From Minisyncoccota bacterium (GTDB taxonomy: Bacteria; Patescibacteriota; Minisyncoccia; Phycocordibacterales; UBA5272), in NCBI GenBank assembly GCA_046350775.1, contig JAXLZS010000001.1:481838-545837 (forward strand): 64,000 nucleotides of DNA, written 5' to 3'. Made by a program: the position numbers and the translations under genes. Positions 5,992 through 64,000 of the stretch are shown here, one piece after another. Position 1 is the first letter of the stretch. Each line of letters opens with the position of its first letter. The notes beneath the pieces are model-generated. The model did not search any database. It was not told where the DNA came from and saw only the letters and a program-made list of their open reading frames with translations.

Positions 5992-6041
5992 AGTCTTAAT
6001 TTGATTTAATATTTCTTAATTATATCACATCAAAATATTTT

Positions 6042-6848: not shown

Positions 6849-6884
6849 TGCTATATTATAGCAAATTATTTTAGATGATTTTAT

Positions 6885-8690: not shown

Positions 8691-8699
8691 AAAATTTTA

Positions 8700-9293: not shown

Positions 9294-9341
9294 ACTAAAT
9301 ATTATAGCATTTAATTTTTTAGTATTAGAATTTATAAAAAA

Positions 9342-9833: not shown

Positions 9834-9859
9834 AATTATATTTTAGCACAATAAATCAA

Positions 9860-10960
9860 TCAGATTGTCTCTCTATAAGGATCAAAAGCCTCTTCTACTG
9901 ATGTAGATTCTTGTAAAGAATTTGAATTTTCTTTTACATTTTTCATCTCTTTTGCATAATAAGTTGGATTTTTTGCTTGTCTGTATGCTTCCTCCTTTTC
10001 TCTTTCTTGTTTCAATAAATCCAGATCTTGATTTTCTTTTTCTCCGTTTTCAATTTTTTCTTTTAGAGTCTCAGCAAAAATTTTACTTATTTCTTCATTT
10101 TCTTTATCTGGCTGAATATCTATATTTTTATATTCTTTATTTTCTTTTGCTGCTGTTTGAGATTGGTTTTCTTTATCTCTTTCCTCTCTTAATGCTTTTT
10201 CCTCTTGCTTTTTTCTTTCTGTTTCAGCTATTCTTTCTTCTTCTTCTTTTTTAATTTGAGCCATTCTTTCTTTTATCTTATCAGTATCTGAGACGTTTTT
10301 TAGATTTAGTTTAGCCAATAAAGAGTCTCTGTTTAGCTCAGATTTTTCTTCTTGTTTTTCTGTGATATTTTGTTTGTTTGATTCTCTGTTTTTATATCCT
10401 ACCAAGATTTCACCTTTACCATTTAGATTGCCGGTTCTTTCTAAAAGAATTTTTCGTAGTTCTTCTTTTTCTTTTTCTTCGTTACTTTCTTTTAATGTTA
10501 AATGTCTTATTTCTTTATTTGTATCAGATTTACTTTGAAGTATTTGTTTTCTTATGTCAGATAAAATATAGGCGTCTATATTTTTCATTATAAGTCCAGC
10601 TGAAAAGTCTTCTAATAATACCCCGCTAGCTTTAAAGCTTTCCATTAGAGTATTTTTTGCTTCAGTTATAGGAAGTATTCCCACTAATATAGACACAGCT
10701 ACATTTTCTATTATGATATTTGCTTTTTCATCATCCAATTTTTCTATTTTACAAATTAATCTTATATTTTCTTCAAATTTGTCACTTAAAATGTAGTTTT
10801 GTATTGCTGGAGAGGATTGATTAAAAGCTAAATCAAATTTATCAGAAAAATTTTCCTCTGAATTATTTTTTTGATCCTCATGTAAAAAAGCATAATCAGA
10901 TGTATTTTCTTCTTCTTTATTTTGGAGTGTCTCTATATTTTCTTGAGTATCATTTGGCAT
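9860..10960 (-). CDS. Highly charged (E/K-rich) predicted coiled-coil cytoplasmic protein, unknown function
   Basis: Long intact ORF of low-complexity E/K-rich composition with heptad-like patterns. It sits between the VirB6-like and VirB3-like genes. Confidence 0.45.
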   Translation of the reverse strand: MPNDTQENIETLQNKEEENTSDYAFLHEDQKNNSEENFSDKFDLAFNQSSPAIQNYILSDKFEENIRLICKIEKLDDEKANIIIENVAVSILVGILPITEAKNTLMESFKASGVLLEDFSAGLIMKNIDAYILSDIRKQILQSKSDTNKEIRHLTLKESNEEKEKEELRKILLERTGNLNGKGEILVGYKNRESNKQNITEKQEEKSELNRDSLLAKLNLKNVSDTDKIKERMAQIKKEEEERIAETERKKQEEKALREERDKENQSQTAAKENKEYKNIDIQPDKENEEISKIFAETLKEKIENGEKENQDLDLLKQEREKEEAYRQAKNPTYYAKEMKNVKENSNSLQESTSVEEAFDPYRETI

Positions 10961-11019
10961 AATTAATAAAAATTAATTTATTAATTATATTTTAACATGA
11001 ATTATTTTTAATTCATCTT

Positions 11020-13803: not shown

Positions 13804-13866
13804 GAATATATTGTATCATAAAAACGGTCACTACGAGAGTGTAGTGACCGTTTATTTTCAATGTTT

Positions 13867-16383
13867 TTATTCGCTGCAATTACTTTCTACAAATTGCTGG
13901 ATAAGCTCTGTGGTCGATGCTGTAGACTTACAATATTCATTTGATGTACCATCCGAAGATGAACAGAAATTTTTTATCTCTGTCTCTGGTGAGGCGCATA
14001 TTTCAGAAACATTCTTACTTACAGCTACGAAATTTGGATCATTTTGTAGTTGATAAACTAAATTATTTATCGTATTTTGAGTCATCGTCAGATTTTTAAG
14101 ATCACAAATACCTATACCTATTTTTTCACAATAAGCTTTTTCAGAATATGTGGAGCTATTTTTACTAGAAACTTGGAATGGATAAGCTTTTCTAGGTACG
14201 TCTGGAGTAAATCTTAATAGTGAAGTGTATCCAAAACCATTTAAAAATGAAGGTATATATGGATTTGATGTTGAGCTATTTATTGCATAATTTTTTACTA
14301 ATTGAAAAGCTCTTAATCTTATATTTTCTAAATAGTGAGCACTAAATGGAGCAGAAGTCTCATAATCTGTTGGTATAAATTGTTTTGTTGATTTATCATC
14401 TATGTTTGGTGTATTTTCGCTACTTGTAAACTTTGAAATAAAGTTCCAGTCTAGAGTCACTTCTGCGAGCTGTTCTTCTGTTATTGTATTGTCTAGAGCT
14501 TTTGCTATTTTATCCATATTGTCTTCTGGTCTAGCGTTTGTACTTAAAAAGAGATTTTGTAGCTCGTTTAATTTTTGCTCTTTGTAATTGTTATACGCCA
14601 TCTGACTTATAAGACTACGTATATCTTTACCTAAATTATTAAAAGCAGTATTAAATTTATTTGTTGCTGATCTAATATTAATCAGGTCAGCATAAGCTTT
14701 TTTGTTCTTTTTATTTCCTCCTAGCAATCCGTATAGATTATAAGTAAATACGTTTAATATTGCGCCTTTTGTTCTCACCTCTTGTAATTCTGTCTTATAG
14801 TCTTGATTGATTTGGCCTGTATATCCTAATGCTAATTTTAATATTGAGTAAGTATAAACTTCTTCATTAAGTTTTTCAGTATTTATTTCTCTGGCTTGTT
14901 TATAAAGGTCTAAGACTACAGGTATCCTATCTGCTGTCGCTGTAGCTGTGATGCCGAGAGCATATTCTTTATTTGAATTTCTACTTGCATCTCCTAGGTC
15001 AAAGCTACTCTTGGTTATTCCGACTACATTGTCTAGCGTGGTGGCAAGTTGAGCATAAGTATTGTTGGTTGTAAAATCTGGAGATTGACCATTATTATTA
15101 CTGTATCCCATACCAAGAATACTATTTGCTATATCTAAAAATGAATTGGCTTGATTTGCGTATTTAGAAATACCACAAGCTATATCATTGAATGAGGCTC
15201 CTCCACTTGATGACCCTCCCTGCAATTGGGAAAGAGCTGAAATATCAGAAGCAGATCCACCGCCAGATCCAGAAAGAGATGATATATCAGAAGAAGACAT
15301 GCTACTTCCACCACAAGAAGCGTTTGTTGATTGTGCTTTTGCTAATATGTCTAGATATGGAGAAAGTCTCGCTGCGTCGATATTTGATTTTATTACAGCC
15401 GCACTACTAGATGCTGACGTCACTAAATTATCACAAAGAGCTTTATTAGGATCAGAAGCGTCAAACTTTTTTGCTTTTCCATCTTTATCGACACATATCT
15501 GACTTCCTATTATCCCACCATTGCTTGTGTATTGATTTGTGGCGTTAGTTATACTTTCATTATAAGCTTTATTAATTTTATCCTCTAGTGCTGCTGCTAC
15601 TCCACTAGGCGTGTTTGCTGGATCTGCTAGAGCGACATTTGTTAGTGGTCCACCGTATCCAGCTTTTGCTAAACCAATAAATACTACTTGAGCGGACTTG
15701 CCTTCTGTTTCAGAAGAAAGATCTGTGTTACATAATTTGTCTATATCTACATTTTTAACTGAAGGTTTTGGATTTATGTATGTTTTTGGTTCTCCATTTT
15801 TCACTATATTTTTTAATTTATCACTATTACAAATCTCTTTTTGGGCGACAAAGGGCAACTTGATTGCTATGCTTTCATTAGCCTCACTTCTTATTTTCTT
15901 TGTCACATTTTTTAAAGCTGTACTTATGTATGGATTTGTGCCAGATTGAGTAGCTTGATCATTTAATACATTTCTTATGGCATTTTCTCCATTACTCTTT
16001 AAAAATCCTTTTAGATCAGTCACTACTTGAGCTCCGTTTGTTAGAGGATTTGTAAAGGCATCACGCTTTATAGATATTGATTGGGTCACAGCGTCTCCGA
16101 TTTGTTTTATAGCTACACCAGAAAGATTTGAAGCCAGCATAGACATGTCAAAATTTTTTATATTTTTAGCAAGAGCGGCTGCACTTTTTGCAGTAGTTAC
16201 AACAGTTTTTGCTGCTTGTACTCCGAGTCTTATATCGTCAATTACCATATTTGCGGTTTGGACAATAGTTAAAGCGTTTTGTACAGGATCAAGAGCAAAG
16301 GCTCGCATAGAAAAGGTACTTAAATATACAAAAATCCCTAGTATAAGAATGTATTTTTTGATTTTTAGATTTATTTTTTTCAT
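13867..16383 (-). CDS. Large secreted protein (838 aa) with signal peptide, helical N-terminal region, S/G-rich linker and Cys-containing C-terminal domain; possible T4SS surface/adhesin component
   Basis: Intact ORF with a clear signal peptide (ILILGIFVYLSTFSMRAFA) and a central SSDISSLSGSGGGSASDISALS linker. Its position within the T4SS-like cluster is the only functional clue. Confidence 0.55.
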   Translation of the reverse strand: MKKINLKIKKYILILGIFVYLSTFSMRAFALDPVQNALTIVQTANMVIDDIRLGVQAAKTVVTTAKSAAALAKNIKNFDMSMLASNLSGVAIKQIGDAVTQSISIKRDAFTNPLTNGAQVVTDLKGFLKSNGENAIRNVLNDQATQSGTNPYISTALKNVTKKIRSEANESIAIKLPFVAQKEICNSDKLKNIVKNGEPKTYINPKPSVKNVDIDKLCNTDLSSETEGKSAQVVFIGLAKAGYGGPLTNVALADPANTPSGVAAALEDKINKAYNESITNATNQYTSNGGIIGSQICVDKDGKAKKFDASDPNKALCDNLVTSASSSAAVIKSNIDAARLSPYLDILAKAQSTNASCGGSSMSSSDISSLSGSGGGSASDISALSQLQGGSSSGGASFNDIACGISKYANQANSFLDIANSILGMGYSNNNGQSPDFTTNNTYAQLATTLDNVVGITKSSFDLGDASRNSNKEYALGITATATADRIPVVLDLYKQAREINTEKLNEEVYTYSILKLALGYTGQINQDYKTELQEVRTKGAILNVFTYNLYGLLGGNKKNKKAYADLINIRSATNKFNTAFNNLGKDIRSLISQMAYNNYKEQKLNELQNLFLSTNARPEDNMDKIAKALDNTITEEQLAEVTLDWNFISKFTSSENTPNIDDKSTKQFIPTDYETSAPFSAHYLENIRLRAFQLVKNYAINSSTSNPYIPSFLNGFGYTSLLRFTPDVPRKAYPFQVSSKNSSTYSEKAYCEKIGIGICDLKNLTMTQNTINNLVYQLQNDPNFVAVSKNVSEICASPETEIKNFCSSSDGTSNEYCKSTASTTELIQQFVESNCSE

Positions 16384-41289: not shown

Positions 41290-41361
41290 TGCCCCCGCCA
41301 GGATTCGAACCCAGAACAGCGGTTCCGAAGACCGATGTGATATCCATTTCACCACGGAGGC
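41290..41361 (-). tRNA. tRNA-Arg (anticodon read as UCG; tentative)
   Basis: Reverse complement GCCTCCGTGGTGAAATGGATATCACATCGGTCTTCGGAACCGCTGTTCTGGGTTCGAATCCTGGCGGGGGCA folds as a cloverleaf with acceptor GCCTCCG/CGGGGGC, T-loop TTCGAAT and anticodon loop CTTCGGA. Confidence 0.6.
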
Positions 41362-41422
41362 TTTATTTAATGATAACAAATAAAAGACTGAAGTCCTATA
41401 AAAATTTAGAGTTTATTTTTTG

Positions 41423-41493
41423 TGCGGCGTAAGGGAATCGAACCCTTGTCCCCTGCTTGGAAGGCAGGTATTCTACCACTAAACCAACACCGC
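41423..41493 (-). tRNA. tRNA-Gly (anticodon UCC)
   Basis: Reverse complement GCGGTGTTGGTTTAGTGGTAGAATACCTGCCTTCCAAGCAGGGGACAAGGGTTCGATTCCCTTACGCCGCA has anticodon stem CCTGC/GCAGG, loop CTTCCAA and T-loop TTCGATT. The CCA end is not encoded. Confidence 0.7.
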
Positions 41494-41584
41494 ATTAATG
41501 TAATAATATCACAAAAAAGATTTTTTTACAAAACTATAATATATAATAAAAGAAAAACCACTCATTTAAGCGAATGGTTTTTCA

Positions 41585-41875
41585 TAGTCCTCTAACTCAT
41601 AAGCGGAATTCTGTTTATATGATCATTTATCTGGGAATATTATTACTAATATCCTCAAGCGGCACTCTTCAAAATATTTGAAGCACGGCCTTGCACACAG
41701 GTAAGTATTTTGCCGTTTCATCCGAACTAAATCGGTTCGTCACTGTTCGCAACTCTCGCCTTGCGGCGGACGGGCGTTACCCGCTACCATTTTAACTTTT
41801 TACAAAGTATGTGTTCCGACTTTCCTCAAGATTTAAAATAAGTTAAATCTCGCGATCATTTGAGGAAGAGATGTA
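41585..41875 (-). ncRNA. rnpB: RNase P RNA (bacterial type A-like, compact); ends approximate
   Basis: On the minus strand, the conserved P4 5' strand GAGGAAAGTCGGAAC (reverse complement of 41811-41830) and the P4 3' strand ACAGAATTCCGCTTATGAG (reverse complement of ~41590-41625) are both present. A P3-like hairpin (agattta…taaatct) is also seen. The segment is a GC-elevated non-coding island between tRNA genes. Confidence 0.6.
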
Positions 41876-41933
41876 TATAATAACAAAATTAATATTTAAA
41901 TTCAATTATTTCAATATAGTGAAATTAAAAAAA

Positions 41934-42197
41934 TTATTCCCAATTTTCCCACTCCCCTCCATTTTCTACATTCACAAAACCTTTTTCTTCTAAAAAATTT
42001 TTTGCCATTTCTGCTCTGCTACCACTTCTACAAACTAGCAGTATCTTTTTATCTTTATCTATTTTAGCTAATTCTGTTTCATCAAAATTTTCTTCAAGCT
42101 CATCAAGTGGAATATTCACACTTCCTTCCGCATGTTCTAGATCAAACTCTTCTTTTGTTCTTACATCAATAAAAAAATCAAAATCTTTTTTATTCAT
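41934..42197 (-). CDS. Rhodanese-domain sulfurtransferase (single domain)
   Basis: 87 aa; active-site loop LLVCRSGSRAEMA and the rhodanese N-terminal pattern DVRTKEEFDLEHAEGSVNIPL. Confidence 0.75.
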   Translation of the reverse strand: MNKKDFDFFIDVRTKEEFDLEHAEGSVNIPLDELEENFDETELAKIDKDKKILLVCRSGSRAEMAKNFLEEKGFVNVENGGEWENWE

Positions 42198-42205
42198 ATC
42201 TTTTG

Positions 42206-42278
42206 TCGGAGTGCAGGGATTCGAACCCTGAGTCGCTGGTACCCAAAACCAGAATGTTAGCCGTTACACCACACTCCG
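42206..42278 (-). tRNA. tRNA-Pro (anticodon UGG)
   Basis: Reverse complement CGGAGTGTGGTGTAACGGCTAACATTCTGGTTTTGGGTACCAGCGACTCAGGGTTCGAATCCCTGCACTCCGA has a C1-G72 acceptor, anticodon loop TTTGGGT and T-loop TTCGAAT. Confidence 0.7.
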
Positions 42279-45355: not shown

Positions 45356-45426
45356 GCGGTGTTGGTTTAGTGGTAGAACACGTCCTTGCCAAGGATGAGA
45401 CAGGAGTTCGATTCTCCTACGCCGCA
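45356..45426 (+). tRNA. tRNA-Gly (anticodon GCC)
   Basis: GCGGTGTTGGTTTAGTGGTAGAACACGTCCTTGCCAAGGATGAGACAGGAGTTCGATTCTCCTACGCCGCA has the same acceptor stem as the UCC isoacceptor. Anticodon loop TTGCCAA. Confidence 0.75.
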
Positions 45427-53394: not shown

Positions 53395-54987
53395 ATGTAC
53401 TATAGATATATAGTCGCCATTACGTCAGGTTTATTTTTAGGATTAATTATTTCCTACAAATTAGATTTCTCTACAGAAATATTTTTCGTCTCTCTAATTT
53501 TAATATTTATAAATTTTTTGATTTACAAATTCCAAAAAAGATCTTTTGGGGTTTATAAATCTTTTGTGCCGATCTTAGTATTAGTATTTTTTATTGGTAC
53601 GGCTCTCGGAATATTACTGGGCCAATATGATTTGTCTTATGATTTAGAAAAAAAAAATAATTTTCAAAATTATATTTCACAGAAAAATGATTTTGAAGGA
53701 ATGGTAAGTAATGTGTCCATTTCACAATCATCTCAAAAATTTATTTTAAACGTAAATGATGAAACGGAAATTTTTAAAATAAAAATAATCACAGGACTTT
53801 TTCCAAAATATAATTCAGGAGACATGATATCTGTATCAGGAAAAGTCTCTGACGGTGATGTGGTTTTACCAGACATTACACAAAGTAAAAAGTCCTTTAA
53901 TGTAAAAGACAAAGATGATCTACTGGATATAGATGGAGAGATGGCTTTTCCAAAAATAAAATTTGTCTCTGAAAGTGTTTCAGGAAACGTATTTTCTAAA
54001 TTGGAAAATACAAAAAATAATTTTCTAAATATTTTAGAAAAAGATATACCTCTCGATGCGGCTGCCCTTTCGGCTGGTACTACTTTGGGCGACTCTTCCC
54101 TCTTCACAAAGGAGGATATAAATGCGTTTCGTGTTTCCGGTCTTTCACATATCATAGTCTTGTCTGGATTTAATATTACAATTTTGATTTTTGTTTTGAT
54201 TTATATTTTTTCATTATTTCGTTTAAGATTATTTTGGCGTGTAACGCTATCAATTTTTTCTATAATATTTTTTATTTTATTTGTGGGTGGCGGACCGTCT
54301 CTTGTGAGAGCCGGGATCATGGGAGGTGTCTTACTTATAGCTTCACTCTTTGGTAGACAATATATCGCAAAGCAAGCTTTGTTTGTCTCTGCATTTTTTA
54401 TGATGATAGCAAATCCTAAAATTGCTCTCTATGATGTCTCTTTTCATTTGTCTTTTTTAGCGACATTTGGGATACTATATCTTGTGCCAATATTCGACAA
54501 TTATAGATTTTTTCAAAAAGACAAAAACGATAAAATCGAGTACAATCTTTCAGAAAATAAATCCGAGAAAGATAAAAATAAATTTTCAAAAAAAATCTGG
54601 GATAGTATTTTGGAAATATTAAAAGTCACACTAGCTGTACAGATCATGGTCTTGCCATACATAATGTTTGTCTTTGGAAAGGTGTCCATCTTTAGTCTCA
54701 TCGCAAATATTTTAGTTGTACCACTAGTGCCGGTCATCATGCTCCTCTCTGTGTTGATTTTATTTTTTTCTTTCTTTGCAAATTTTATATCAATATTTTT
54801 AGGCTGGGTATCTTATCTATTTTGTGAGTACATATTTATCATCGCAAGATTTATTTTTACTTTACCTTTTTCACAAGTTGAAAATTATATTTCAGGTTTG
54901 ACTTTATTTTTACTTTATCTGATTTTATTTCTTTTTATATATTTTGAAAACTTTAGACAAAAGATAAATTCATATCTGAATAGTTAA
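53395..54987 (+). CDS. comEC: ComEC/Rec2 DNA-uptake channel protein, membrane (DUF4131 + competence) part
   Basis: The multi-TM LSAGTTLGDSSLFTKEDINAFRVSGLSHIIVLSGFNITIL segment is the ComEC competence-domain signature. Confidence 0.8.
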   Translation: MYYRYIVAITSGLFLGLIISYKLDFSTEIFFVSLILIFINFLIYKFQKRSFGVYKSFVPILVLVFFIGTALGILLGQYDLSYDLEKKNNFQNYISQKNDFEGMVSNVSISQSSQKFILNVNDETEIFKIKIITGLFPKYNSGDMISVSGKVSDGDVVLPDITQSKKSFNVKDKDDLLDIDGEMAFPKIKFVSESVSGNVFSKLENTKNNFLNILEKDIPLDAAALSAGTTLGDSSLFTKEDINAFRVSGLSHIIVLSGFNITILIFVLIYIFSLFRLRLFWRVTLSIFSIIFFILFVGGGPSLVRAGIMGGVLLIASLFGRQYIAKQALFVSAFFMMIANPKIALYDVSFHLSFLATFGILYLVPIFDNYRFFQKDKNDKIEYNLSENKSEKDKNKFSKKIWDSILEILKVTLAVQIMVLPYIMFVFGKVSIFSLIANILVVPLVPVIMLLSVLILFFSFFANFISIFLGWVSYLFCEYIFIIARFIFTLPFSQVENYISGLTLFLLYLILFLFIYFENFRQKINSYLNS

Positions 54988-54996
54988 AATACATTT

Positions 54997-55983
54997 ATGC
55001 AAAGTACAAATCTAAAAGAAATATTTTTTTCACTAAAGACAAAAATAAAAAATTTTAATAAATCTTATGGGAGAATTTTTTGGGTTTTAATTTTTATAAT
55101 TTTATTTTTTATTTTGATTTATATTTATGAAAATATTTTTTCTTCTCAAGACTTACAAATAACTTTCTTTGATATTGGTCAGGGTGACGCAGCTCTGATC
55201 AAAACTCCTGGTCGAGAAAATATTTTGATAGACGCCGGACCAAATAATCTGATTTTGAAAAAATTAGAAGACTCACTTTCTATTTTTGATAGGAATATTG
55301 ATCTGGCTATACTCTCACATCCGGACGCTGATCATGTGGCTGGATATATTTCAATTTTTCAAAATTACAAAGTAAAAAATATTTTAGAAAATGGTGACGA
55401 GACAAAAGAGAGTGAGATCTATCAAGAAATAAAAAAATCTATTCAAAAGGAAAAAGATGAATATGATACAAAAGAATATTTTGCGAATTGTGGCGATGAG
55501 ATTTCTTTCCCTGGTAAGCGGGATGAAAAATTAAAAATCTATATCATACATCCGATGAAAAATAATTTAGTCATCAATGATACAAATGATAACTCTATAG
55601 TCGCTCTCGTCACTTTTGATCAGTATGGATTTCTTTTTACCGGGGACGCCAGTCAAGATGTAGAAAAGAAAATATTTTTTGAAATAGAAAATTGTTTTAA
55701 TAAAAATGATAGCGAGTCCATAAAAAAATATTTTAAAGATCTGACAGTCTTGAAAGTCTCACATCATGGATCAAAGTCTGGCAGTAGTGAGGATTTTATA
55801 AGAAAAATTAGTCCAGAATATTCTATTATCAGTGCGGGCAAAAATAATAGATATGGTCATCCAAATGACGAGGTTCTAAAAATTTTAGAAAAGTATAGTA
55901 AAAATATTTTGAATACCATAAATGACGGTGATATCACTTTTGTGACCGATGGAAAAAATTTAATTATTAAAAAGTCAAGATGA
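54997..55983 (+). CDS. Metallo-beta-lactamase-fold protein corresponding to the ComEC C-terminal domain, encoded separately
   Basis: ITFFDIGQGDAALIKTPGRENILIDAGP and LSHPDADHVAG (HxHxDH-like) motifs, immediately downstream of the comEC membrane part. Confidence 0.75.
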   Translation: MQSTNLKEIFFSLKTKIKNFNKSYGRIFWVLIFIILFFILIYIYENIFSSQDLQITFFDIGQGDAALIKTPGRENILIDAGPNNLILKKLEDSLSIFDRNIDLAILSHPDADHVAGYISIFQNYKVKNILENGDETKESEIYQEIKKSIQKEKDEYDTKEYFANCGDEISFPGKRDEKLKIYIIHPMKNNLVINDTNDNSIVALVTFDQYGFLFTGDASQDVEKKIFFEIENCFNKNDSESIKKYFKDLTVLKVSHHGSKSGSSEDFIRKISPEYSIISAGKNNRYGHPNDEVLKILEKYSKNILNTINDGDITFVTDGKNLIIKKSR

Positions 55984-56866: not shown

Positions 56867-59068
56867 ATGAATATTACAATTAATTTAAAGAAAATAGCAT
56901 TATTTAGTGTTTTTTCTTTTGTTTTATTATTTAATTTATCATCTGTAGCTTTTGCGGCTAATGGGTGGACTATACAAACAGGAGCTGGTCAACATGCTTG
57001 GCATTCTATAACTTCTTCTTCCGACGGCACAAAGCTTGCAGCTGTAGATATTAATGGTTACATATACACTTCCACAGACTCAGGTGTCACCTGGACAGAG
57101 CAGACAGGATCAGGACAACGTGCCTGGTATACTATTGTATCATCATCTGATGGAACAAAATTAGCAGTTACAGATTCTAACAATGGTTACATATATACTT
57201 CTACCGACAGCGGTGTCACATGGACGCAACAAATAGGATCAGGACAAAGAAATTGGTATTTTATTACTTCCTCTGCAGACGGCACTAAACTAGCCGCTAC
57301 TAGTATGAGTGGTAATATTTACACTTCCACAGACTCAGGTGTCACCTGGACAGAGCAGACAGGATCAGGCTCGCATTATTGGTTTTCTATTACCTCATCA
57401 TCTGATGGTACAAAATTAGCTGCAGTGTCACGTTATGGCTATATTTACACTTCCACAGACAGCGGCGTAACCTGGACAGAGCAGACAGGATCAGGACAAC
57501 GTATTTGGCAAGATATAGCCTCTTCTGCTGATGGTACAAAGTTGGTAGCGGTAACAGACAGTAACGGATACATATATACTTCTAACGATAGTGGTGTCAC
57601 CTGGACAGAGCAGACAGGATCAGGACAATATTCCTGGAACGCTGTTAGCTCCTCTGCTGATGGTACCAAATTGGCTGCTCTTGTTTCAGAGGGTTATATG
57701 TATTTATCTAATGACAGCGGCGTCACTTGGACAGAGCAGACAAATGTTGGTCAACATGGTTGGTATTCTATAACTTCTTCAGCCGACGGTACAAGATTAG
57801 CCGCCCCAGTAATTAATAACTATATTTATACTTATGGAGAACTTGGAGCTCCAAGAGTTAATTTAATAGCAGCTTCTATTTCTGGCTCTAATTCTATTTC
57901 ATTAAGTGCTTTTTCTACAACAGAAAGTACAATTAGAGGTTTTGAATATGGTTTAACAGCCAGCTACGGTTCTTCAACAGAAGAAACTGGGGATCTTGGT
58001 GTAGGTATATTTACAGCTAATTTGATAGGGCTAGAAAATAATAGAATCTATCATTATAGAGCTTATGTTATGAATTCTGCTGGAACAACTTATACGTCTG
58101 ATAACACCATTCTTCTTCGATATCAATCTTGGACAGAGCAGACAGGATCAGGACAACACACCTGGGTATCTATAGCCTCATCTGCAGATGGTACAAAATT
58201 AGCAGCAGTGGATTCTGCTAACGGATACATTTACACTTCCACAGACTCAGGTGTCACTTGGACAGAGCAGACAGGATCAGGACAACGTTCTTGGAGATCA
58301 ATTACTTCCTCTTCTGACGGTACAAAACTAGCGGCAATAGATCAAGGTGGGTATGTCTACACTTCCACAGACTCTGGAGTAACATGGACAGAGCAGACAG
58401 GATCAGGACAAAAAATGTGGACTTCGATAACATCTTCTGCTGATGGTGTAAAATTGGCAGCAACTGTAGCTTTAGATGGATACATTTACACTTCCACAGA
58501 CTCTGGAATAACTTGGACAGAGCAGGTAAATTCTGGACAGTATAATTGGCAGACAATTAGTTCTTCAGAAGATGGAACAACAATTATTGCTGCAGCGACT
58601 GATCCTTGCGGAGGATGTATGGGCTTCGGATATGTATCTATTTCAAAAGATAGTGGTCTTACTTGGACAGCCCAAGAGTCAATAGGTTCTCATTCATGGT
58701 CTTCAGTATCTTCTTCTGCTGACGGAACAAAATTGGTCGCGGTAAACGGTGGTTTTGGTTATGTTTACACTTCTACAGATGGTGGCACAACATGGACAGA
58801 GCAAACTGGTTCTGGAGATCGTAATTGGCACGCTATCACTTCATCTTCGGATGGAACTAAATTAGCTTTAGTGGACGGGGAATATGTATACACATCTAAT
58901 GATGGCGGCATAACCTGGGTACAAAATCTAGGGTCCACTCAACATAATTGGTTTTCTATAACTTCTTCATCTGATGGTACAAAATTAGCCGCCGGAACAT
59001 CTAATGATTATATACATACTTACAAAAACGACTTTCCCCAAGCCCAAAACGTATCAGTAGAATATTAA
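56867..59068 (+). CDS. Secreted BNR/Asp-box repeat (beta-propeller-type) protein, 733 aa, with a central inserted domain
   Basis: Signal peptide, then ~13 repeats of ~42-45 aa, each ending YIYTSTDSGVTWTEQTGSGQ (Asp-box S-x-D-x-G-x-T-W). The non-repeat insert at ~57830-58120 interrupts the repeats. Confidence 0.75.
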   Translation: MNITINLKKIALFSVFSFVLLFNLSSVAFAANGWTIQTGAGQHAWHSITSSSDGTKLAAVDINGYIYTSTDSGVTWTEQTGSGQRAWYTIVSSSDGTKLAVTDSNNGYIYTSTDSGVTWTQQIGSGQRNWYFITSSADGTKLAATSMSGNIYTSTDSGVTWTEQTGSGSHYWFSITSSSDGTKLAAVSRYGYIYTSTDSGVTWTEQTGSGQRIWQDIASSADGTKLVAVTDSNGYIYTSNDSGVTWTEQTGSGQYSWNAVSSSADGTKLAALVSEGYMYLSNDSGVTWTEQTNVGQHGWYSITSSADGTRLAAPVINNYIYTYGELGAPRVNLIAASISGSNSISLSAFSTTESTIRGFEYGLTASYGSSTEETGDLGVGIFTANLIGLENNRIYHYRAYVMNSAGTTYTSDNTILLRYQSWTEQTGSGQHTWVSIASSADGTKLAAVDSANGYIYTSTDSGVTWTEQTGSGQRSWRSITSSSDGTKLAAIDQGGYVYTSTDSGVTWTEQTGSGQKMWTSITSSADGVKLAATVALDGYIYTSTDSGITWTEQVNSGQYNWQTISSSEDGTTIIAAATDPCGGCMGFGYVSISKDSGLTWTAQESIGSHSWSSVSSSADGTKLVAVNGGFGYVYTSTDGGTTWTEQTGSGDRNWHAITSSSDGTKLALVDGEYVYTSNDGGITWVQNLGSTQHNWFSITSSSDGTKLAAGTSNDYIHTYKNDFPQAQNVSVEY

Positions 59069-59094
59069 TGATATAATAATCAAATAATAAAAAT

Positions 59095-59820
59095 ATGAAA
59101 AAAATAATCACATCAATAATATTTCTATTCATGCTAACCGTGAGTATAAATATGGTAAAAGCTACAGTCATACCTGTAGGCACATCAATAACTGGTCAGT
59201 ATACATATTATGACCCAGAAGGAGATCTGGAAGGTCAATCATTATTTCAATGGTATAGAGATGGTGTAGCTATAGACGGAGCTACTTATAGATCCTACAC
59301 AATAACATCTCAAGATGTTGGTCATACGCTTGTCTTTGAAGTGACACCTGTCTCATTGACCGGTATCTCTCCTGGAGAGCCAATCAGAAGTGAAGGTATC
59401 GCAATCACCGCACAATCTGCTGGAAATAGTGGTGGTGGAGGATCTTCTGGTGGAGGTATGATATCAGTAATCGTACCAGCTAGCACCTCTACACCAGTCA
59501 TTACTTTTTTGACATCTGGGGCTACAACTTCTTCTACTACAGTAGTTATTAATAACAATTCAAATCTAGGTGGTATCATCTCACAGATTGCTAGAACGTT
59601 AAAATATGGCATGTCAGGTGTAGATGTGAAAGCTCTTCAAATATATCTAAATACTAATGGATATATAGTAGCTAAATCAGGAGCAGGATCACCTGGTCAT
59701 GAGACTAACTATTTTGGTCTTGCTACTAAAGCTGCAGTCATGAGATTCCAAAAAGCTAATAAGATCACTCCTGTTTCAGGTCTCGTTGGCCCTTTAACAA
59801 GAGCGGTGATTAATAAATAG
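59095..59820 (+). CDS. Secreted protein with N-terminal Ig-like/beta domain, Gly/Ser/Thr linker and C-terminal peptidoglycan-binding (PG_binding_1-like) domain
   Basis: Signal peptide. C-terminal LKYGMSGVDVKALQIYLNTNGY…ATKAAVMRFQKANKITPVSGLVGPLTRAVIN matches the PG-binding helical repeat pattern. Confidence 0.65.
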   Translation: MKKIITSIIFLFMLTVSINMVKATVIPVGTSITGQYTYYDPEGDLEGQSLFQWYRDGVAIDGATYRSYTITSQDVGHTLVFEVTPVSLTGISPGEPIRSEGIAITAQSAGNSGGGGSSGGGMISVIVPASTSTPVITFLTSGATTSSTTVVINNNSNLGGIISQIARTLKYGMSGVDVKALQIYLNTNGYIVAKSGAGSPGHETNYFGLATKAAVMRFQKANKITPVSGLVGPLTRAVINK

Positions 59821-59890: not shown

Positions 59891-60592
59891 ATGATAACTT
59901 CAATATTTTTTATAATAATTCTCTTTTATTCTATAGTTTTTCATGAGATTGCTCATGGATATGCAGCTTATAGAAATGGCGATATGACAGCTTTTAATGC
60001 TGGTCGCCTAACGCTCAATCCATTAAGACATATTGATATGATTGGGTCTATTATAGTACCCATAATTTCTTATTTTGCTTTTAATTTTGCTTTTGGTTGG
60101 GCAAAGCCAGTACCGTACAATCCTGAAAATATAAAACATAAAAAATATGGTGAATTGGAGGTGGCTTCAGCTGGAATAATTATTAATCTTTTTATTGCTG
60201 GACTAGCTATTTTAATATTTTATATTTTAAAAGGACAATTTTTAATAAATTCTGCTGTGGCAAATATCTTAATACTTACTACTACCATCAATTTATTTTT
60301 AGCTTTGTTTAATCTTTTACCATTTCCACCAGCTGATGGATTTTCTATATTTTCTGAGCTTTTCACACACATTAGATCTTTTTATGTCAATATAAAAAAT
60401 AAATTTAGTAAAAAGAAGATATACGAGGCAAATTATATAAATAATAATCCTATAAGAAATAAATCTTTTTATATAAAATCATTGTTTTCTAATCCTTTTA
60501 TGATGATAGTCATAATATTTGTAGCGGTAAATGTGTTTAGTCTGCTTGTGCCATTCGTCTTGTCTTTTATAAATTATTTATATTCTTTTTAA
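59891..60592 (+). CDS. Peptidase M50-like (site-2 protease family) small polytopic membrane metalloprotease
   Basis: HEIAHGYAAY (HExxH within a TM) and LLPFPPADG (M50 NxxPxxxLDG-like) motifs; 233 aa with multiple TMs. Confidence 0.65.
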   Translation: MITSIFFIIILFYSIVFHEIAHGYAAYRNGDMTAFNAGRLTLNPLRHIDMIGSIIVPIISYFAFNFAFGWAKPVPYNPENIKHKKYGELEVASAGIIINLFIAGLAILIFYILKGQFLINSAVANILILTTTINLFLALFNLLPFPPADGFSIFSELFTHIRSFYVNIKNKFSKKKIYEANYINNNPIRNKSFYIKSLFSNPFMMIVIIFVAVNVFSLLVPFVLSFINYLYSF

Positions 60593-60726: not shown

Positions 60727-63700
60727 ATGAAAAAAATATTAAAACTAATCATAAATACATTTTTAGTTTTTTCACTATTGTTTTCTTTTTCTTTTGCGGC
60801 AATTAATGATTCTTCTTCTGCCAGTCTTTGGGATAAAATCTCTGTGCGTGTATATTGTGGACTTAATAATATTTTAAACATTACCAATCTATGTAAAAGT
60901 AAAGAACAATCTGTTAAAAGTAAAAGCACTTATTCTATAAACTCTTCTGTTATTTCTATAGCTACATCTACTCCTACGACTACATTATCATCAAAGCCTC
61001 TCACTTGGAATTATGTACCAGTAGCCAATAATAATGTAAACAATCTTGTTGGTCCGCAAGGACCACAAGGCCCAGCCGGACCTCCTGGTCCACCAGGTCC
61101 TGTAGCTACTTCTTCTTGGGTTAATTATGTACCTGTGCAAGGACCACCAGGCCCAGCCGGCCCCCAAGGTCCAGCTGGACCTGCTGGCGGAGGAGGTTCT
61201 GCTTCTACTACTAATTCTATTCTTAGTGCGACAAATCTACTTACTTCAATAGTGAATGGAGAAGTGTCTACAACTTCAATAATAAATTCAAATATCGCCT
61301 CATCATCAAACAATCTTCTTCAGACCATTGTGAATGGTGTCTACTCTAATACAATATCTATAATATTTTCAAATGATCTTTCTTTTGATGGGAATATCTT
61401 AACTTCTTCTGTAAATGGCGTATCAACAAGTACGGATTTGTCATCATTGAGACCAAAATGGTATGCGGAAAATATTGATGCACCGACCGTTTCTCCTACT
61501 TCTACAGGTGTAGGGTCTATTGCTCTTGGTGATGGAGCTCAAGCTTTGTCTGATAATATGTTTGTCTATGGAAATAATGCTGGGGTTGATGCTATAAACG
61601 CGAATAATTCAAACTTTGTAGGAAATAATGCTGGAGCTAGTTCTACACGTGCTAGCAACTCAAACTTTTTAGGATATAATTCTGGATATGAAGCGACAGA
61701 TGCATACAACTCAAATTTCTTAGGATATCAATCAGGAAAAAATGCTACAAATGCATCTTATTCAAACTTTTTTGGTGCTAATTCTGGCTCTCAAGCTTCT
61801 GAGGCTAGCTATTCAAACTTTTTTGGTCAATTTTCTGGCTACAATGCTACATATGCTAGTTTATCAAACTTTTTAGGAGTAAGTGCTGGAGAATCAGCTA
61901 CATATGCAAATAACTCAAACTTTTTTGGCCAGCAAGCTGGATATGGAGCGGCAGGTGCTTATAGTTCAAATTTCTTTGGTATGTATGCAGGAATTTTAGC
62001 CGGAAACGCATATAGATCAAACTTTTTAGGTGAAAATGCTGGATACATGGCAACAAATGCATATATGTCAAACTTTTTAGGTAGAAACGCTGGAAATGGT
62101 GCTACCGGGTCAAGTAACTCAAACTTTTTAGGCAATGGTGCAGGTCTTGTAGCTAATAATGCGTATCAGTCAAATTTTCTTGGAAATGCAGCAGGTCTTA
62201 GAGCTTACAATGCATTTCATTCAAATTTTTTAGGATATGAAGCTGGAAAAGATGCTCAAAATGCAAACAACTCTTTCTTTGTAGGAAGAGACGCTGGATA
62301 TTTAGCTCCAAATGCTTCTTATTCTAATTTTTTCGGTTCAAATTCTGGCCTTGGTGCTACAAATGCAAACAATTCAAACTTTATGGGCCAAGGCTCAGGT
62401 CAAGGTGCTGTAAATGCAAATAATTCAAACTTTTTTGGTTGGGGTGCTGGATTTTCGGCTGAGAATGCTATAAATTCTAATTTCTTAGGTAGCTTTTCTG
62501 GAGCTTACGCTCCATACGCTTCAAGCTCAAACTTTTTAGGGTATTATTCTGGATATGGGGCAACAACCGGAAACAATTCAAACTTTTTTGGATATCAATC
62601 AGGTTATCAAGCTACAAATGCAAACAATTCAAACTTTTTGGGATATGGTTCTGGATATGAGGCTGTAGTCGCTTCAAGCTCTAACTTTTTAGGATATCAA
62701 TCCGGATATAAAGCAACAACCGGAAACAATTCAAACTTTTTTGGATATCAATCAGGTTATCAAGCTACAAATGCAAACAATTCAAACTTCTTTGGTCAAG
62801 GAGCTGGAAATGGAGCTGCAAGTGCATACAACTCTACTTTTATAGGAAATAATGCAGGATATGGTGCAACTTATGGAACTCGCTCTACATTTATAGGTCA
62901 AGAAGCTGGATATCAAGCTGGAGCTAATTCTGATTATGATGGTGATAACACTAGCCAGTATTTTGATTCTAATTTTATAGGATACCAATCTGGCTACCAA
63001 GCTACAAATTCTTATAACTCAAACTTTTTAGGTTTTAAATCTGGCTATCAAGCATCAAGCGCTAATAACTCTAACTTTTTTGGTAACAGTACTGGTTTTG
63101 GAGCCACAAATGCAAATAACTCTAATTTTTTAGGAACTGGTGCTGGCTATCAAGCAACAAGCGCATATGATTCTAATTTTTTAGGACAAAATGCTGGCAA
63201 TGCTGCCGCAAATGCAAATAACTCTGTATTTTTTGGTAATCAATCTGGAGATGGGGCTGCGAATTCAAATAATTCAAACTTCTTTGGAAGACTATCTGGT
63301 TATACAGCTATAAATGCATACAACTCTAACTTCTTTGGACAAAGTGCTGGATATGGTGCAACAAATTCTCACCTTTCTAACTTTTTAGGTTATAGTGCTG
63401 GCTATGGTGCGACGGACGCTCACGATTCCAATTTCTTAGGAGATTCAGCTGGTTATCAAGCAACATCCGCTTTCTTTTCTAACTTCTTTGGTCAAAATGC
63501 TGGATCTGGTGCGTACAATGCAGTCAGCTCAAACTTCTTAGGAAACAGTTCTGGTTTTAATGCTTATGGTGCAGAATATTCAAACTTCTTAGGTTATAGA
63601 GCTGGATATGTTGCAGTAAGTGCCGACTATTCAAACTTCTTAGGTTATAGCGCTGGCTATGGTGCGACAAACGCCAACTATTCCAACTTTTTTGGATCAA

Positions 63701-64000
63701 ATGCTGGAAATGGAGCATCCAATGCTTCATATTCAAATATCTTTGGCTATAAAGCAGGACAAACATTTACAGGTAATAACATAGGTACAAATAATATAAT
63801 AATAGGTACCAATATTTCTCTACCAGATGCGACAGCTAATGCTATAAATATCGGCGGAGTACTATTTGGTAGTGGAACATATGCGACTACTACAGGCGAC
63901 CCAATCATTACCCCAGTCTCTAACGGAAAAATTGGTATCGGAGTAGTATCGCCTGCATATACACTAGATGTAGGAAATAGTTCTGTATCTGGAGTAGTAG
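60727..64000 (+). CDS. Giant secreted fibrous surface protein (partial; no stop in window): signal peptide, collagen-like G-x-y tracts, then ~42 tandem 17-aa repeats (consensus SNF[LF]GxxAGYxATNAxN), then a distinct C-terminal-ward region
   Basis: ATG at 60727 (MKKILKLIINTFLVFSLLFSFSFAA…). GPQGPQGPAGPPGPPGP at ~61054-61105 and QGPPGPAGPQGPAGPAGGGG at ~61138-61195. Uninterrupted plus-strand reading frame to the window end. It is absent from the ORF track because it is unterminated, and the minus-strand track ORFs inside it are artefacts. Confidence 0.8.
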   Translation, partial: MKKILKLIINTFLVFSLLFSFSFAAINDSSSASLWDKISVRVYCGLNNILNITNLCKSKEQSVKSKSTYSINSSVISIATSTPTTTLSSKPLTWNYVPVANNNVNNLVGPQGPQGPAGPPGPPGPVATSSWVNYVPVQGPPGPAGPQGPAGPAGGGGSASTTNSILSATNLLTSIVNGEVSTTSIINSNIASSSNNLLQTIVNGVYSNTISIIFSNDLSFDGNILTSSVNGVSTSTDLSSLRPKWYAENIDAPTVSPTSTGVGSIALGDGAQALSDNMFVYGNNAGVDAINANNSNFVGNNAGASSTRASNSNFLGYNSGYEATDAYNSNFLGYQSGKNATNASYSNFFGANSGSQASEASYSNFFGQFSGYNATYASLSNFLGVSAGESATYANNSNFFGQQAGYGAAGAYSSNFFGMYAGILAGNAYRSNFLGENAGYMATNAYMSNFLGRNAGNGATGSSNSNFLGNGAGLVANNAYQSNFLGNAAGLRAYNAFHSNFLGYEAGKDAQNANNSFFVGRDAGYLAPNASYSNFFGSNSGLGATNANNSNFMGQGSGQGAVNANNSNFFGWGAGFSAENAINSNFLGSFSGAYAPYASSSNFLGYYSGYGATTGNNSNFFGYQSGYQATNANNSNFLGYGSGYEAVVASSSNFLGYQSGYKATTGNNSNFFGYQSGYQATNANNSNFFGQGAGNGAASAYNSTFIGNNAGYGATYGTRSTFIGQEAGYQAGANSDYDGDNTSQYFDSNFIGYQSGYQATNSYNSNFLGFKSGYQASSANNSNFFGNSTGFGATNANNSNFLGTGAGYQATSAYDSNFLGQNAGNAAANANNSVFFGNQSGDGAANSNNSNFFGRLSGYTAINAYNSNFFGQSAGYGATNSHLSNFLGYSAGYGATDAHDSNFLGDSAGYQATSAFFSNFFGQNAGSGAYNAVSSNFLGNSSGFNAYGAEYSNFLGYRAGYVAVSADYSNFLGYSAGYGATNANYSNFFGSNAGNGASNASYSNIFGYKAGQTFTGNNIGTNNIIIGTNISLPDATANAINIGGVLFGSGTYATTTGDPIITPVSNGKIGIGVVSPAYTLDVGNSSVSGVV
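61565..63770 (+). repeat. Tandem array of ~42 imperfect 51-nt repeats encoding the 17-aa units of the giant protein; includes an exact higher-order ~150-nt duplication (62521-62670 vs 62671-62820)
   Basis: Periodic recurrence of tcaaactttttagg / tcaaacttttttgg every 51 nt. The identical stretch ttttttggatatcaatcaggttatcaagctacaaatgcaaacaattcaaac occurs at ~62581 and ~62731. Confidence 0.85.

What the first reader, a model, noticed from the sequence alone, without database searches (positions are those of the whole stretch)
60727..64000. Giant secreted protein combining collagen-like triple-helix tracts with ~42 tandem 17-residue repeats (SNFxGxxAGYxATNAxN)
An ORF unterminated in the window and more than 1090 aa long starts with a signal peptide, has two G-x-y runs (GPQGPQGPAGPPGPPGP; QGPPGPAGPQGPAGPAGGGG) and then a strikingly regular 17-aa repeat array rich in N/S/G/A with an invariant aromatic-Gly (F/L-G) and A-G-Y core. 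The composition and periodicity resemble beta-roll/beta-helix fibrous repeats, such as trimeric-autotransporter head repeats of the NSVAIG type, ice-nucleation-like repeats and phage tail-fibre repeats. The 17-aa unit fused to a collagen-like stalk is not a textbook family. An exact ~150-nt higher-order duplication inside the array (62521-62670 = 62671-62820) indicates recent repeat expansion and suggests length/antigenic variation. Such a fibre is a candidate host-attachment structure.
Basis: seen in the sequence. Interest (0 to 1): 0.8.

Follow-up and report, generated by a model that had tools for sequence, protein, structure and literature searches.

The report
Phage-like surface fibre of a tiny bacterium
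This is the first ~80% of a chromosomal gene from a small-genome (Patescibacteria-type) bacterium that encodes an exported fibre built from 42 copies of a 17-residue unit, a shaft module shared with many uncultured phage tail-fibre-like proteins that has no curated family model or solved structure, and its most likely job, attachment to other cells, is untested.

Summary
An open frame runs from 60727 to the window end (1091 codons). It has a signal-peptide-like N-terminus, two 6-7-triplet G-X-Y tracts and 42 anchors spaced exactly 17 residues apart. The claimed "exact 150-nt duplication" is wrong: it is a 153-nt, three-unit duplication, about 87% identical, with a 77-nt exact core.

The repeat has no Pfam, NCBIfam or PHROG model and no sequence match among solved structures. 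It is nevertheless widespread: 1,632 cluster representatives at E<=1e-30. It occurs in Patescibacteria, Bacteroidota and over 200 viral contigs. AlphaFold2 predicts one beta-solenoid coil per repeat (pLDDT 97-98 over ten repeats).

A closely related genome (NusA 93% identical) carries colinear fibre genes in the same chromosomal slot. Both end in a Peptidase_S74 self-cleaving chaperone domain. All 12 relatives sharing the window's last 12 residues place that domain's cleavage motif 34 residues after the motif begins, so it should start about 23 residues past the window end.

The cellular copies sampled mostly carry a signal peptide and S74; the viral copies mostly carry neither. The fibre is only 36-39% identical between genomes whose neighbouring genes are 76-93% identical.

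Best reading: a self-trimerising, phage-type cell-surface fibre, probably for attachment. I rate it a new variant of a known kind, of moderate interest.

The parts
60727..64000 (+). Open reading frame of the fibre protein, 1091 codons, cut off by the window end (predicted full length about 1300-1430 aa)
   Evidence: No stop codon in frame. Relatives carry 190-315 more residues after the equivalent point.
60727..60798 (+). Signal-peptide-like N-terminus (aa 1-24, MKKILKLIINTFLVFSLLFSFSFA)
   Evidence: Read directly from the sequence. AF2 predicts a helix at aa 2-18. The same feature occurs in most of the cellular relatives sampled and in none of the viral ones.
60826..60894 (+). Conserved N-terminal segment with two Cys (LWDKISVRVYCGLNNILNITNLC); candidate cell-proximal attachment segment
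   Evidence: Conserved in the L129 paralogue (FWDSLSIRVYCGLNDIFNINNLC), P0007 and P0005. Its function is inferred only.
61051..61104 (+). Collagen-like G-X-Y tract 1 (6 triplets)
   Evidence: Weak PHROG collagen-like tail-fibre hits. Pfam Collagen is below threshold.
61141..61203 (+). Collagen-like G-X-Y tract 2 (7 triplets), preceded by the conserved W..NYVPVQ motif
   Evidence: Colinear tracts occur in P0055 and the L129 paralogue.
61234..61449 (+). Ser/Thr/Asn-rich linker with three NLLxxxVNG-type units
   Evidence: Aligned to P0055 and the L129 paralogue. Low AF2 confidence as a monomer.
61456..61608 (+). N-terminal cap of the solenoid (KWYAEN...GSIALGDGAQALSDNMFVYGNNAG), including one degenerate 17-residue unit (aa 278-294)
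   Evidence: Conserved in P0055 and, twice, in P0005. AF2 strands at 265-267 and 279-281, pLDDT rising to about 90.
61609..63783 (+). Array of 42 canonical 17-residue repeats (SNF[LF]GxxAGxxATxAxx), predicted as one beta-solenoid coil per repeat
   Evidence: AF2 pLDDT 97-98 over ten repeats and mostly 70-97 across the full array, apart from a dip at aa 477-524.
62517..62822 (+). Three-unit (153-nt) higher-order duplication, about 87% identical, with a 77-nt exact core
62935..62967 (+). 11-residue insertion (YDGDNTSQYFD) between units 26 and 27, probably a surface loop
   Evidence: pLDDT below 50 at aa 734-743.
63784..64000 (+). Conserved C-terminal cap and tip (GTNNIIIGTNISLP..INIGGVLFG..GKIGIGVVSPAYTLDVGNSSVSGVV). 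The S74 chaperone domain is predicted to begin about 23 residues beyond the window.
   Evidence: 69% identical to P0007 851-939. The cap recurs in more than 100 places among relatives. All 12 proteins sharing the terminal motif have the S74 cleavage-type motif 34 residues after the motif begins.
59891..60592 (+). Upstream Peptidase_M50 gene. The adjacency comEC - MBL - M50 - fibre recurs in a close relative and in a distant Nomurabacteria genome.
   Evidence: Any functional link is speculative.

Best explanation
The ORF is the N-terminal ~80% of a chromosomal gene of a Patescibacteria (Paceibacteria/Nomurabacteria-type) bacterium that encodes an exported fibre. SHOWN: The order of parts is a signal-peptide-like N-terminus, a short conserved Cys-containing segment, two short collagen-like tracts, and a Ser/Thr/Asn-rich linker. 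After the linker comes a single-chain beta-solenoid of about 45 coils, one coil per 17-residue repeat (42 canonical), closed by a highly conserved cap. The array-plus-cap module is shared with hundreds of proteins on viral contigs. The gene sits in a conserved chromosomal slot and diverges far faster than its neighbours. INFERRED: About 23 residues beyond the window the protein continues into a Peptidase_S74 intramolecular chaperone. In phage endosialidases and tail fibres this domain trimerises the preceding beta-helical region and then cuts itself off at a conserved Ser. The mature product would then be a homotrimeric fibre tens of nanometres long. As a rough estimate, 45 coils at about 0.48 nm give about 20 nm, to which the collagen tracts and linker add more. 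Its N-terminal end would stay at the cell, through an uncleaved signal anchor or the conserved Cys segment, and its C-terminal tip would be exposed after self-cleavage. The most likely job is recognition of and attachment to another cell's surface, that is, host attachment by an episymbiont. This would be the cellular counterpart of a phage receptor-binding fibre.
Against: The S74 domain and the stop codon are not in the window, and the source contig could not be extended. Only monomers could be modelled, so trimerisation is inferred. The collagen tracts are short and below Pfam's threshold. The N-terminal 250 residues and the cap have low model confidence. No cell-anchoring device (sortase signal, lipobox, wall-binding domain) was identified. 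If the signal peptide is cleaved and S74 cuts itself off, the fibre could simply be released. The exposed repeat positions are variable, so the array looks like a shaft, not a binding lattice. No experiment on any member of the family was found in the literature searched.
Confidence: 0.6

Rival explanations
1. It is a phage or prophage tail-fibre gene that happens to lie at the edge of the window, and not a cellular protein.
For: The array-plus-cap module is abundant on viral contigs (207 loci) and occurs in phage PAU gp257 and a Methanosarcinales virus 'virion structural protein'. What lies downstream in the window is unknown.
Against: It has a signal-peptide-like N-terminus, which is absent from the viral copies sampled. 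It lies in a conserved chromosomal slot between comEC/M50 and the ribosomal-protein/EF-Tu operon in a close and a distant relative, with no phage genes nearby. The upstream genes are housekeeping genes.
Confidence: 0.08
2. It is a secreted fibre that is released from the cell (signal peptide and S74 both removed) and acts at a distance. It could be a matrix or aggregation factor, a decoy for phages, or a bacteriocin-like targeting fibre, and not a cell-anchored adhesin.
For: No anchoring motif was found. Both ends are predicted to be processed.
Against: The N-terminal Cys segment is conserved among orthologues, and neighbouring PG_binding/BNR surface-protein genes suggest a cell-proximal partner. 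By established knowledge, phage S74 fibres are attached by their N-terminus.
Confidence: 0.15
3. It is a beta-helical polysaccharide-degrading enzyme (a tailspike/depolymerase or pectate-lyase-like protein).
Against: These are generic beta-helix matches, and Foldseek finds nothing significant in the PDB (best E 1.1). The coil has only 17 residues and lacks the long loops that form active sites. Only 4.8% of array residues are charged. No enzyme family hit was found.
Confidence: 0.04
4. It is a trimeric-autotransporter-type adhesin with a YadA-like head.
Confidence: 0.02
5. It is an ice-binding or ice-nucleation-like, or mineral- or surface-binding, solenoid.
Against: The period is 17, not 16. 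No Pfam hit was found. The outward-facing positions are variable, not a repeated T-x-T-type lattice.
Confidence: 0.02

Closest known systems
Phage fibres and spikes with a C-terminal Peptidase_S74 intramolecular chaperone (K1F/endoNF endosialidase, T5 L-shaped tail fibre pb1, GA-1 neck appendage)
   Same: A beta-helical shaft followed by an S74 domain with an S-D..LK.NI-type cleavage motif, seen here in the positional orthologues. By inference the logic is the same: the C-terminal chaperone trimerises the shaft and is then removed, exposing the distal tip.
   Different: Here the protein has a signal peptide and is a conserved chromosomal gene of a bacterium. The shaft is a 17-residue-per-coil solenoid that AF2 models as a self-contained single chain. 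The characterised phage examples, as I recall them, have an interdigitated triple beta-helix instead. The window itself stops before the S74 domain.
Uncultured-phage proteins carrying the same array-plus-cap module; among cultured phages, Sphingomonas (Sphingobacterium) phage PAU gp257
   Same: True sequence homology of repeat and cap: 45-68% identity on IMG/VR contigs, and 37% by tblastn / 43% by Foldseek to PAU gp257.
   Different: The viral copies sampled have no hydrophobic N-terminus and mostly no S74 motif, and carry diverse phage-type N-terminal domains such as Mtd_N. None has a described function; PAU gp257 is annotated only as 'gp257'.
Receptor-binding tail fibre gp15 of Staphylococcus phage Andhra (PDB 8egr)
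   Different: Only 12% identity and no sequence relationship. Foldseek finds no significant PDB match at all, so the resemblance is at the level of the general beta-helix class.
YadA-like heads of trimeric autotransporter adhesins
   Same: Short Gly/Ala/Asn/Ser-rich repeats with an 'S-N-hydrophobic-hydrophobic-G' core that form one narrow solenoid per chain, three chains per fibre. Automated pipelines give some relatives this label.
   Different: 17-residue, not 14-residue, repeat. No Pfam YadA_head or Hep_Hag hit. Poor superposition (rmsd 10-13 A). No membrane anchor in orthologues.
Bacterial collagen-like surface proteins (BclA of the Bacillus exosporium, streptococcal Scl1/2)
   Same: An exported protein with a G-X-Y stalk joined to a C-terminal trimerising region that projects from the cell surface (my knowledge of those proteins).
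   Different: The G-X-Y tracts here are only 6 and 7 triplets and score below Pfam's Collagen threshold. The bulk of the fibre is the beta-solenoid, not collagen.

Membership tests
S74-chaperoned fibre ('tail fiber domain-containing protein', PF13884) | C-terminal Peptidase_S74 domain | not testable with these tools
   The window ends at aa 1091, and the source contig could not be extended. Indirect evidence: the positional orthologue P0055, its tandem paralogue, P0007, P0005 and the L005 protein all carry PF13884 (E 3e-12 to 3e-16).
S74-chaperoned fibre ('tail fiber domain-containing protein', PF13884) | Conserved Ser-Asp self-cleavage motif at the start of the chaperone | not testable with these tools
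   Predicted about 23 residues past the window end. All 12 proteins sharing the window's terminal motif L[DQ]VGN[SA]..SG[IV][IV] have [ST]SD..LK.NI exactly 34 residues after the motif begins.
S74-chaperoned fibre ('tail fiber domain-containing protein', PF13884) | Beta-helical shaft immediately upstream of the chaperone | tested here: met
S74-chaperoned fibre ('tail fiber domain-containing protein', PF13884) | Homotrimer | not testable with these tools
   Only single-chain prediction was available.
17-residue SNFxG repeat plus NNIIIGTNISLP cap module (unnamed family) | Sequence homology of array and cap | tested here: met
   689 hits. The cap recurs in more than 100 places among the relatives. 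The 32-sequence alignment A1 has 63% mean column identity. A profile search gave 1,632 representatives at E<=1e-30.
Trimeric autotransporter adhesin | YadA_head / Hep_Hag repeats | tested here: not met
   No Pfam hit to the array even at E<=10.
Trimeric autotransporter adhesin | C-terminal YadA-type beta-barrel anchor | not testable with these tools
   The C-terminus is outside the window. Orthologues end in S74 plus a low-complexity tail, with no anchor hit.
Collagen triple-helix repeat protein (PF01391) | Uninterrupted G-X-Y repeats reaching the family threshold | tested here: inconclusive
   Two real G-X-Y runs of 6 and 7 triplets, but Pfam Collagen scores 12.5 bits against a cut-off of 27.2 (E 0.13). 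The PHROG collagen-like tail-fibre hits are weak (E 0.004-0.03).
Ice-nucleation protein repeat | 16-residue AGYGSTxTAGxxSxLT-type repeat matching the Pfam model | tested here: not met
   The period is 17. No Pfam hit.
Prophage-encoded tail fibre | Location among phage structural genes | tested here: not met
   Upstream genes are trigger factor, PPase, NusA, comEC, MBL and M50. The same slot in L129 and L005 is followed by surface-protein genes and the EF-Tu or S12 ribosomal operon. The region downstream in the window itself is unseen.

The most novel reading that the evidence does not exclude
Episymbiotic Patescibacteria may have put a Sec signal peptide and an S74 self-cleaving chaperone on a phage tail-fibre shaft module to build their own receptor-binding fibres. 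These would sit in a fast-diversifying 'adhesion slot' next to comEC and be used to recognise host cells much as a phage recognises its host. The 17-residue solenoid would then also be a structurally undescribed fibre fold common to many uncultured phages.
Probability: 0.35. Interest if true: 0.7.

Novelty: new variant of a known kind. Interest (0 to 1): 0.5.

Why it matters
How ultrasmall Patescibacteria recognise and hold on to their host cells is largely unknown. The papers found in these searches centre on type IV pili and a few adhesins. This gene offers a concrete and very common candidate. It is a phage-type fibre that is exported by the cell and encoded at a conserved locus. That locus has diverged far more than the surrounding genome: 36-39% identity against 76-93% for its neighbours. 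Such a pattern is what one expects of a host-specificity determinant.

Independently of function, the 17-residue repeat defines a family with thousands of members that lacks a Pfam, NCBIfam or PHROG model and any solved structure. A family model and one structure would improve annotation of many phage and bacterial fibre genes.

Tried and rejected
1. Extending the ORF failed. Exact search with the last 67 nt of the window found nothing in genome contigs or metagenome contigs. Look-up of the M50 neighbour found only two Logan contigs of under 1.7 kb, both of which break just before the fibre gene. A search with the last 89 aa returned only short fragments at 80% identity or less. The N-terminal search found one 97%-identical 185-aa fragment on a 1.2-kb contig.

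2. The curated libraries gave nothing for the array: Pfam at E<=10, NCBIfam, and a PDB sequence search. PHROGs matched only the collagen tract, weakly.

3. Foldseek against the PDB was not significant. The afdb50 library was unavailable.

4. A PHROG scan of the neighbours of one IMG/VR copy was uninformative apart from a phage-type DNA polymerase and a weak adaptor hit.

5. Literature searches for this family in Patescibacteria or CPR found nothing specific.

6. I rejected an assembly artefact. The units average 61% nucleotide identity, so only the 77-nt exact core at 62560 could confuse short-read assembly.

7. I rejected the trimeric-autotransporter, ice-nucleation and enzyme readings; see the rival explanations.

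8. The precomputed labels PF26696, PF26209 and PF05658 on some relatives were not reproduced on the array by my own scans. What PF26696 and PF26209 describe remains unresolved.
Full report

Translation of 60727-64000 (+) gives 1091 codons without a stop. The nearest upstream in-frame stop is at 60538. The N-terminus MKKILKLIINTFLVFSLLFSFSFA|A has the charged, hydrophobic and small-residue layout of a Sec signal peptide, and AlphaFold2 models aa 2-18 as a helix.

Two uninterrupted G-X-Y runs are present, at aa 109-126 (6 triplets) and aa 139-159 (7 triplets).

A simple anchor pattern, S-[NTFV]-[FI]-[FLVMI]-G, occurs 42 times between aa 295 and 1019. Forty of the 41 spacings are exactly 17 residues. 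The single exception is an 11-residue insertion, YDGDNTSQYFD, at aa 737-747. In 1,000 shuffles of the array residues the maximum number of anchors was 2. Tandem Repeats Finder independently reports periods of 51, 102 and 153 nt.

Within the unit, S1, G5 and G9 are invariant. N2, F3 and A12 are nearly invariant, and A/S8 and A15 are strongly preferred. Positions 6, 7, 10, 11, 13, 14, 16 and 17 vary and are rich in Y, N, Q, S, T and G. The array has only 4.8% charged residues, no Cys and two Pro.

One detail of the finding is wrong. At the stated coordinates and a period of 150 nt, only 32 of 150 bases match. The real higher-order repeat has a period of 153 nt (three units, about 62517-62822). 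It is 131/150 identical and has a 77-nt exact core. All other units are old, with a mean pairwise nucleotide identity of 61%.

**2. What family is it?**

No Pfam-A or NCBIfam model matches the protein, even at E<=10 on the isolated array, cap or N-terminal part. The only exception is a sub-threshold Collagen hit (12.5 bits). No PDB chain matches by sequence. PHROGs gives only weak collagen-like tail-fibre hits to aa 100-161.

The protein nevertheless has many relatives. One search returned 689 proteins at E<=1e-3, the best of them 700-1850 aa long. Every one of the top 120 carries between about 5 and 35 units at 17-residue spacing. Many have a precomputed PF13884 (Peptidase_S74) domain. The few with names are called 'tail fiber domain-containing protein [Candidatus Paceibacterota bacterium]', 'Peptidase S74 domain-containing protein' or, from JGI, 'trimeric autotransporter adhesin'.

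The array always ends in a strongly conserved cap: G-S-NNIIIGTNISLP..T.N.INIGGVLFG..TY...G.P.I....GKIGIGV. Some proteins contain two or three array-plus-cap modules.

A profile of the last ten repeats plus cap (alignment A1, 32 sequences) was searched against 1.84 billion cluster representatives. It found 1,632 proteins at E<=1e-30 and 6,543 at E<=1e-10. The repeat is therefore not a textbook family, but neither is it rare.

**3. Who carries it?**

In one genome per GTDB species, the module was confirmed at 48 loci. These were mostly Patescibacteria (Saccharibacteria, Nomurabacteria, Paceibacteria, Minisyncoccia) and Bacteroidota, plus scattered others including one Methanobacterium. In IMG/VR it was confirmed at 207 loci, many on contigs of 80-300 kb.

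Among cultured phages only three records matched. They are phage PAU gp257, whose host is in fact a Sphingobacterium (PMC3738902), a hypothetical protein of a Leptolyngbya phage, and a 'virion structural protein' of a Methanosarcinales virus.

A crude scan of the ORFs around these matches shows a clear split:
- Of the 16 cellular copies with a complete N-terminus, 9 have a strongly hydrophobic N-terminal stretch. Fifteen of the 24 cellular copies have an S74-type cleavage motif.
- None of about 60 complete viral copies has such an N-terminus, and only 3 of about 75 have the S74 motif.
- The viral copies begin instead with typical phage-fibre N-termini. One relative from the protein search (P0025) carries Mtd_N (PF18454). 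Viral copies reach up to 49 units.

**4. Genomic context and the missing C-terminus**

The window is chromosomal. It carries RNase P RNA and tRNAs. It also carries RNase Y, ClpP, trigger factor, pyrophosphatase, NusA, a comEC gene split into Competence and MBL parts, a BNR/sortilin-like protein, a PG_binding protein and an M50 peptidase just upstream of the fibre.

P0055 (893 aa) is colinear with the first 298 residues of the window ORF at 39% identity (E 2e-54). The colinear stretch includes the signal peptide, both collagen tracts, the NLLxxxVNG units and the N-terminal cap. Its contig (ENA, 612 kb) has the same gene order: trigger factor-PPase-NusA-small-comEC-MBL-small-M50-fibre. A second, 1628-aa paralogue follows, and then a PG_binding/fn3/BNR protein, EF-Tu, S10 and L3.

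Both paralogues contain PF13884. The second has the same N-terminal motif as the window protein (FWDSLSIRVYCGLNDIFNINNLC against LWDKISVRVYCGLNNILNITNLC).

The last 89 residues of the window ORF are 69% identical to P0007 851-939, where PF13884 starts 23 residues later. All 12 proteins in hand that share the window's final motif, L[DQ]VGN[SA]..SG[IV][IV], have the motif [ST]SD..LK.NI exactly 34 residues after it begins. A conserved Cys pair precedes that motif, and 190-315 residues follow it to the stop.

I therefore infer, but cannot show, two things. The window ORF should continue into an S74 domain about 23 residues past base 64000, and it should total about 1300-1430 aa. Attempts to recover the real continuation failed.

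A more distant Nomurabacteria genome has the same order: comEC-MBL-M50-fibre (1443 aa, S74). Its ComEC is 28% identical to the window's. In that genome the fibre is followed by a VWA/SdrD_B/SpaA adhesin-like protein and ribosomal protein S12. This argues for a conserved cellular locus holding surface proteins, not a prophage.

**5. Rate of change**

Between the window and the L129 genome the flanking proteins are 76-93% identical: NusA 93%, PPase 91%, trigger factor 87%, M50 79%, ComEC 79% and MBL 77%. The fibre is only 36-39% identical to either paralogue. It has 42 units against about 14 in P0055, and the BNR/PG_binding genes have moved.

This is the pattern expected of a surface protein under diversifying pressure or frequent module exchange. 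Within-population variation was not tested.

**6. Fold**

AlphaFold2 on aa 850-1091 with alignment A1 gives pLDDT 97-98 for all ten repeats. There is one short strand (N-F-x) plus a bridge per 17 residues, that is, one solenoid coil per repeat. The cap after NNIIIGT is poorly defined as a monomer.

The full 1091-residue model keeps the solenoid from about aa 255 to 1040, with pLDDT mostly 70-97. Confidence dips at aa 477-524 and at the 11-residue insertion. Residues 19-250 (collagen tracts and linker) are left unstructured, as expected for parts that would fold only in a trimer.

Foldseek finds nothing significant in the PDB. In the viral predicted-structure set it finds true sequence relatives. 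These are an uncultured-phage protein that UniProt labels 'YadA-like head domain-containing' (33% identity, E 3e-9) and an entry whose 669-aa length matches PAU gp257 (43% identity).

**7. Mechanism proposed**

Shown: the domain order, the solenoid prediction, the homology, the synteny and the divergence.

Inferred from the established behaviour of S74 intramolecular chaperones in endosialidases and phage fibres: three chains are brought into register by the C-terminal chaperone, the shaft and collagen tracts zip up, and the chaperone cuts itself off at the conserved Ser. This leaves the cap and tip region as the free distal end.

The N-terminal end, by analogy with phage fibres that attach through their N-terminus, would be the cell-proximal end. 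It could be held by an uncleaved signal anchor, by the conserved Cys segment, or by a partner such as the neighbouring PG_binding/BNR proteins.

Forty-five coils at about 0.48 nm would give a shaft of about 20 nm, and the collagen tracts and linker would add to this. This length is an estimate, not a measurement.

The function I consider most likely is recognition of and attachment to a partner cell. The anchoring mode and the function are the weakest links in the argument.

**8. Comparison with known systems and novelty**

The protein works like an S74-chaperoned phage fibre and like collagen-stalked surface proteins. It is not a trimeric autotransporter, an ice-nucleation protein or a beta-helical enzyme; see the membership table and the rival explanations.

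The kind of object is known, and databases already carry thousands of unnamed relatives. The 17-residue solenoid module, however, has no curated model, no structure and no publication that I could find. Its signal-peptide-bearing, S74-tipped cellular form at a conserved, fast-evolving locus in Patescibacteria likewise does not appear in the papers searched.

I rate it a new variant of a known kind, with interest 0.5.

Noticed in passing
window 2570-16383 (- strand): A run of large ORFs with no Pfam hit (474, 667, 927 and 838 aa) surrounds a TraG/VirB4-like P-loop ATPase at 6885-8690 (PF19044, E 3e-24). It looks like the type IV secretion-type cluster described for Patescibacteria.
   Followed up: no
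window 53395-55983 (+); L129 5761-8322; L005 21-2994: comEC is split into two adjacent genes, a Competence domain and an MBL domain. In three genomes it is followed by a small M50 peptidase and then the fibre gene. This is a conserved linkage between the DNA-uptake channel gene and the fibre locus, and its meaning is unknown.
   Followed up: partly
window 56867-59820 (+): A 733-aa BNR/sortilin-like protein and a 241-aa Ig-like plus PG_binding_1 protein sit just upstream of M50. In L129 a related PG_binding/fn3/BNR protein (62% identical over 273 aa) sits downstream of the fibre paralogues instead. This suggests a rearranging cluster of surface-protein genes.
   Followed up: partly
L129 12806-17692: A second, tandem fibre paralogue of 1628 aa has three array modules, collagen tracts and an S74 domain. 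Whether the window's genome also has a second copy downstream is unknown.
   Followed up: partly
L005 8393-11695: In a Nomurabacteria genome the fibre gene is followed by a 1100-aa VWA/SdrD_B/SpaA/CarboxypepD_reg protein, which has a Gram-positive adhesin/pilin-type architecture.
   Followed up: no
relatives of the window ORF (P0007, P0010, P0015, P0026, P0038, P0055 and others): A conserved Cys..C pair (NSTGxCxINPxxxxLxCSSD) lies immediately before the S74 cleavage-type motif, possibly a disulfide-closed tip loop.
   Followed up: no
L025 (Methanobacterium MAG) and BK063672.1 (Methanosarcinales virus): The same repeat module occurs in an archaeal MAG and in an archaeal virus 'virion structural protein'. 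The module therefore crosses the bacteria/archaea virus divide.
   Followed up: no
window 41290-42278 and 45356-45426: RNase P RNA (41585-41871, - strand) and four tRNA genes. These are ordinary chromosomal features.
   Followed up: no
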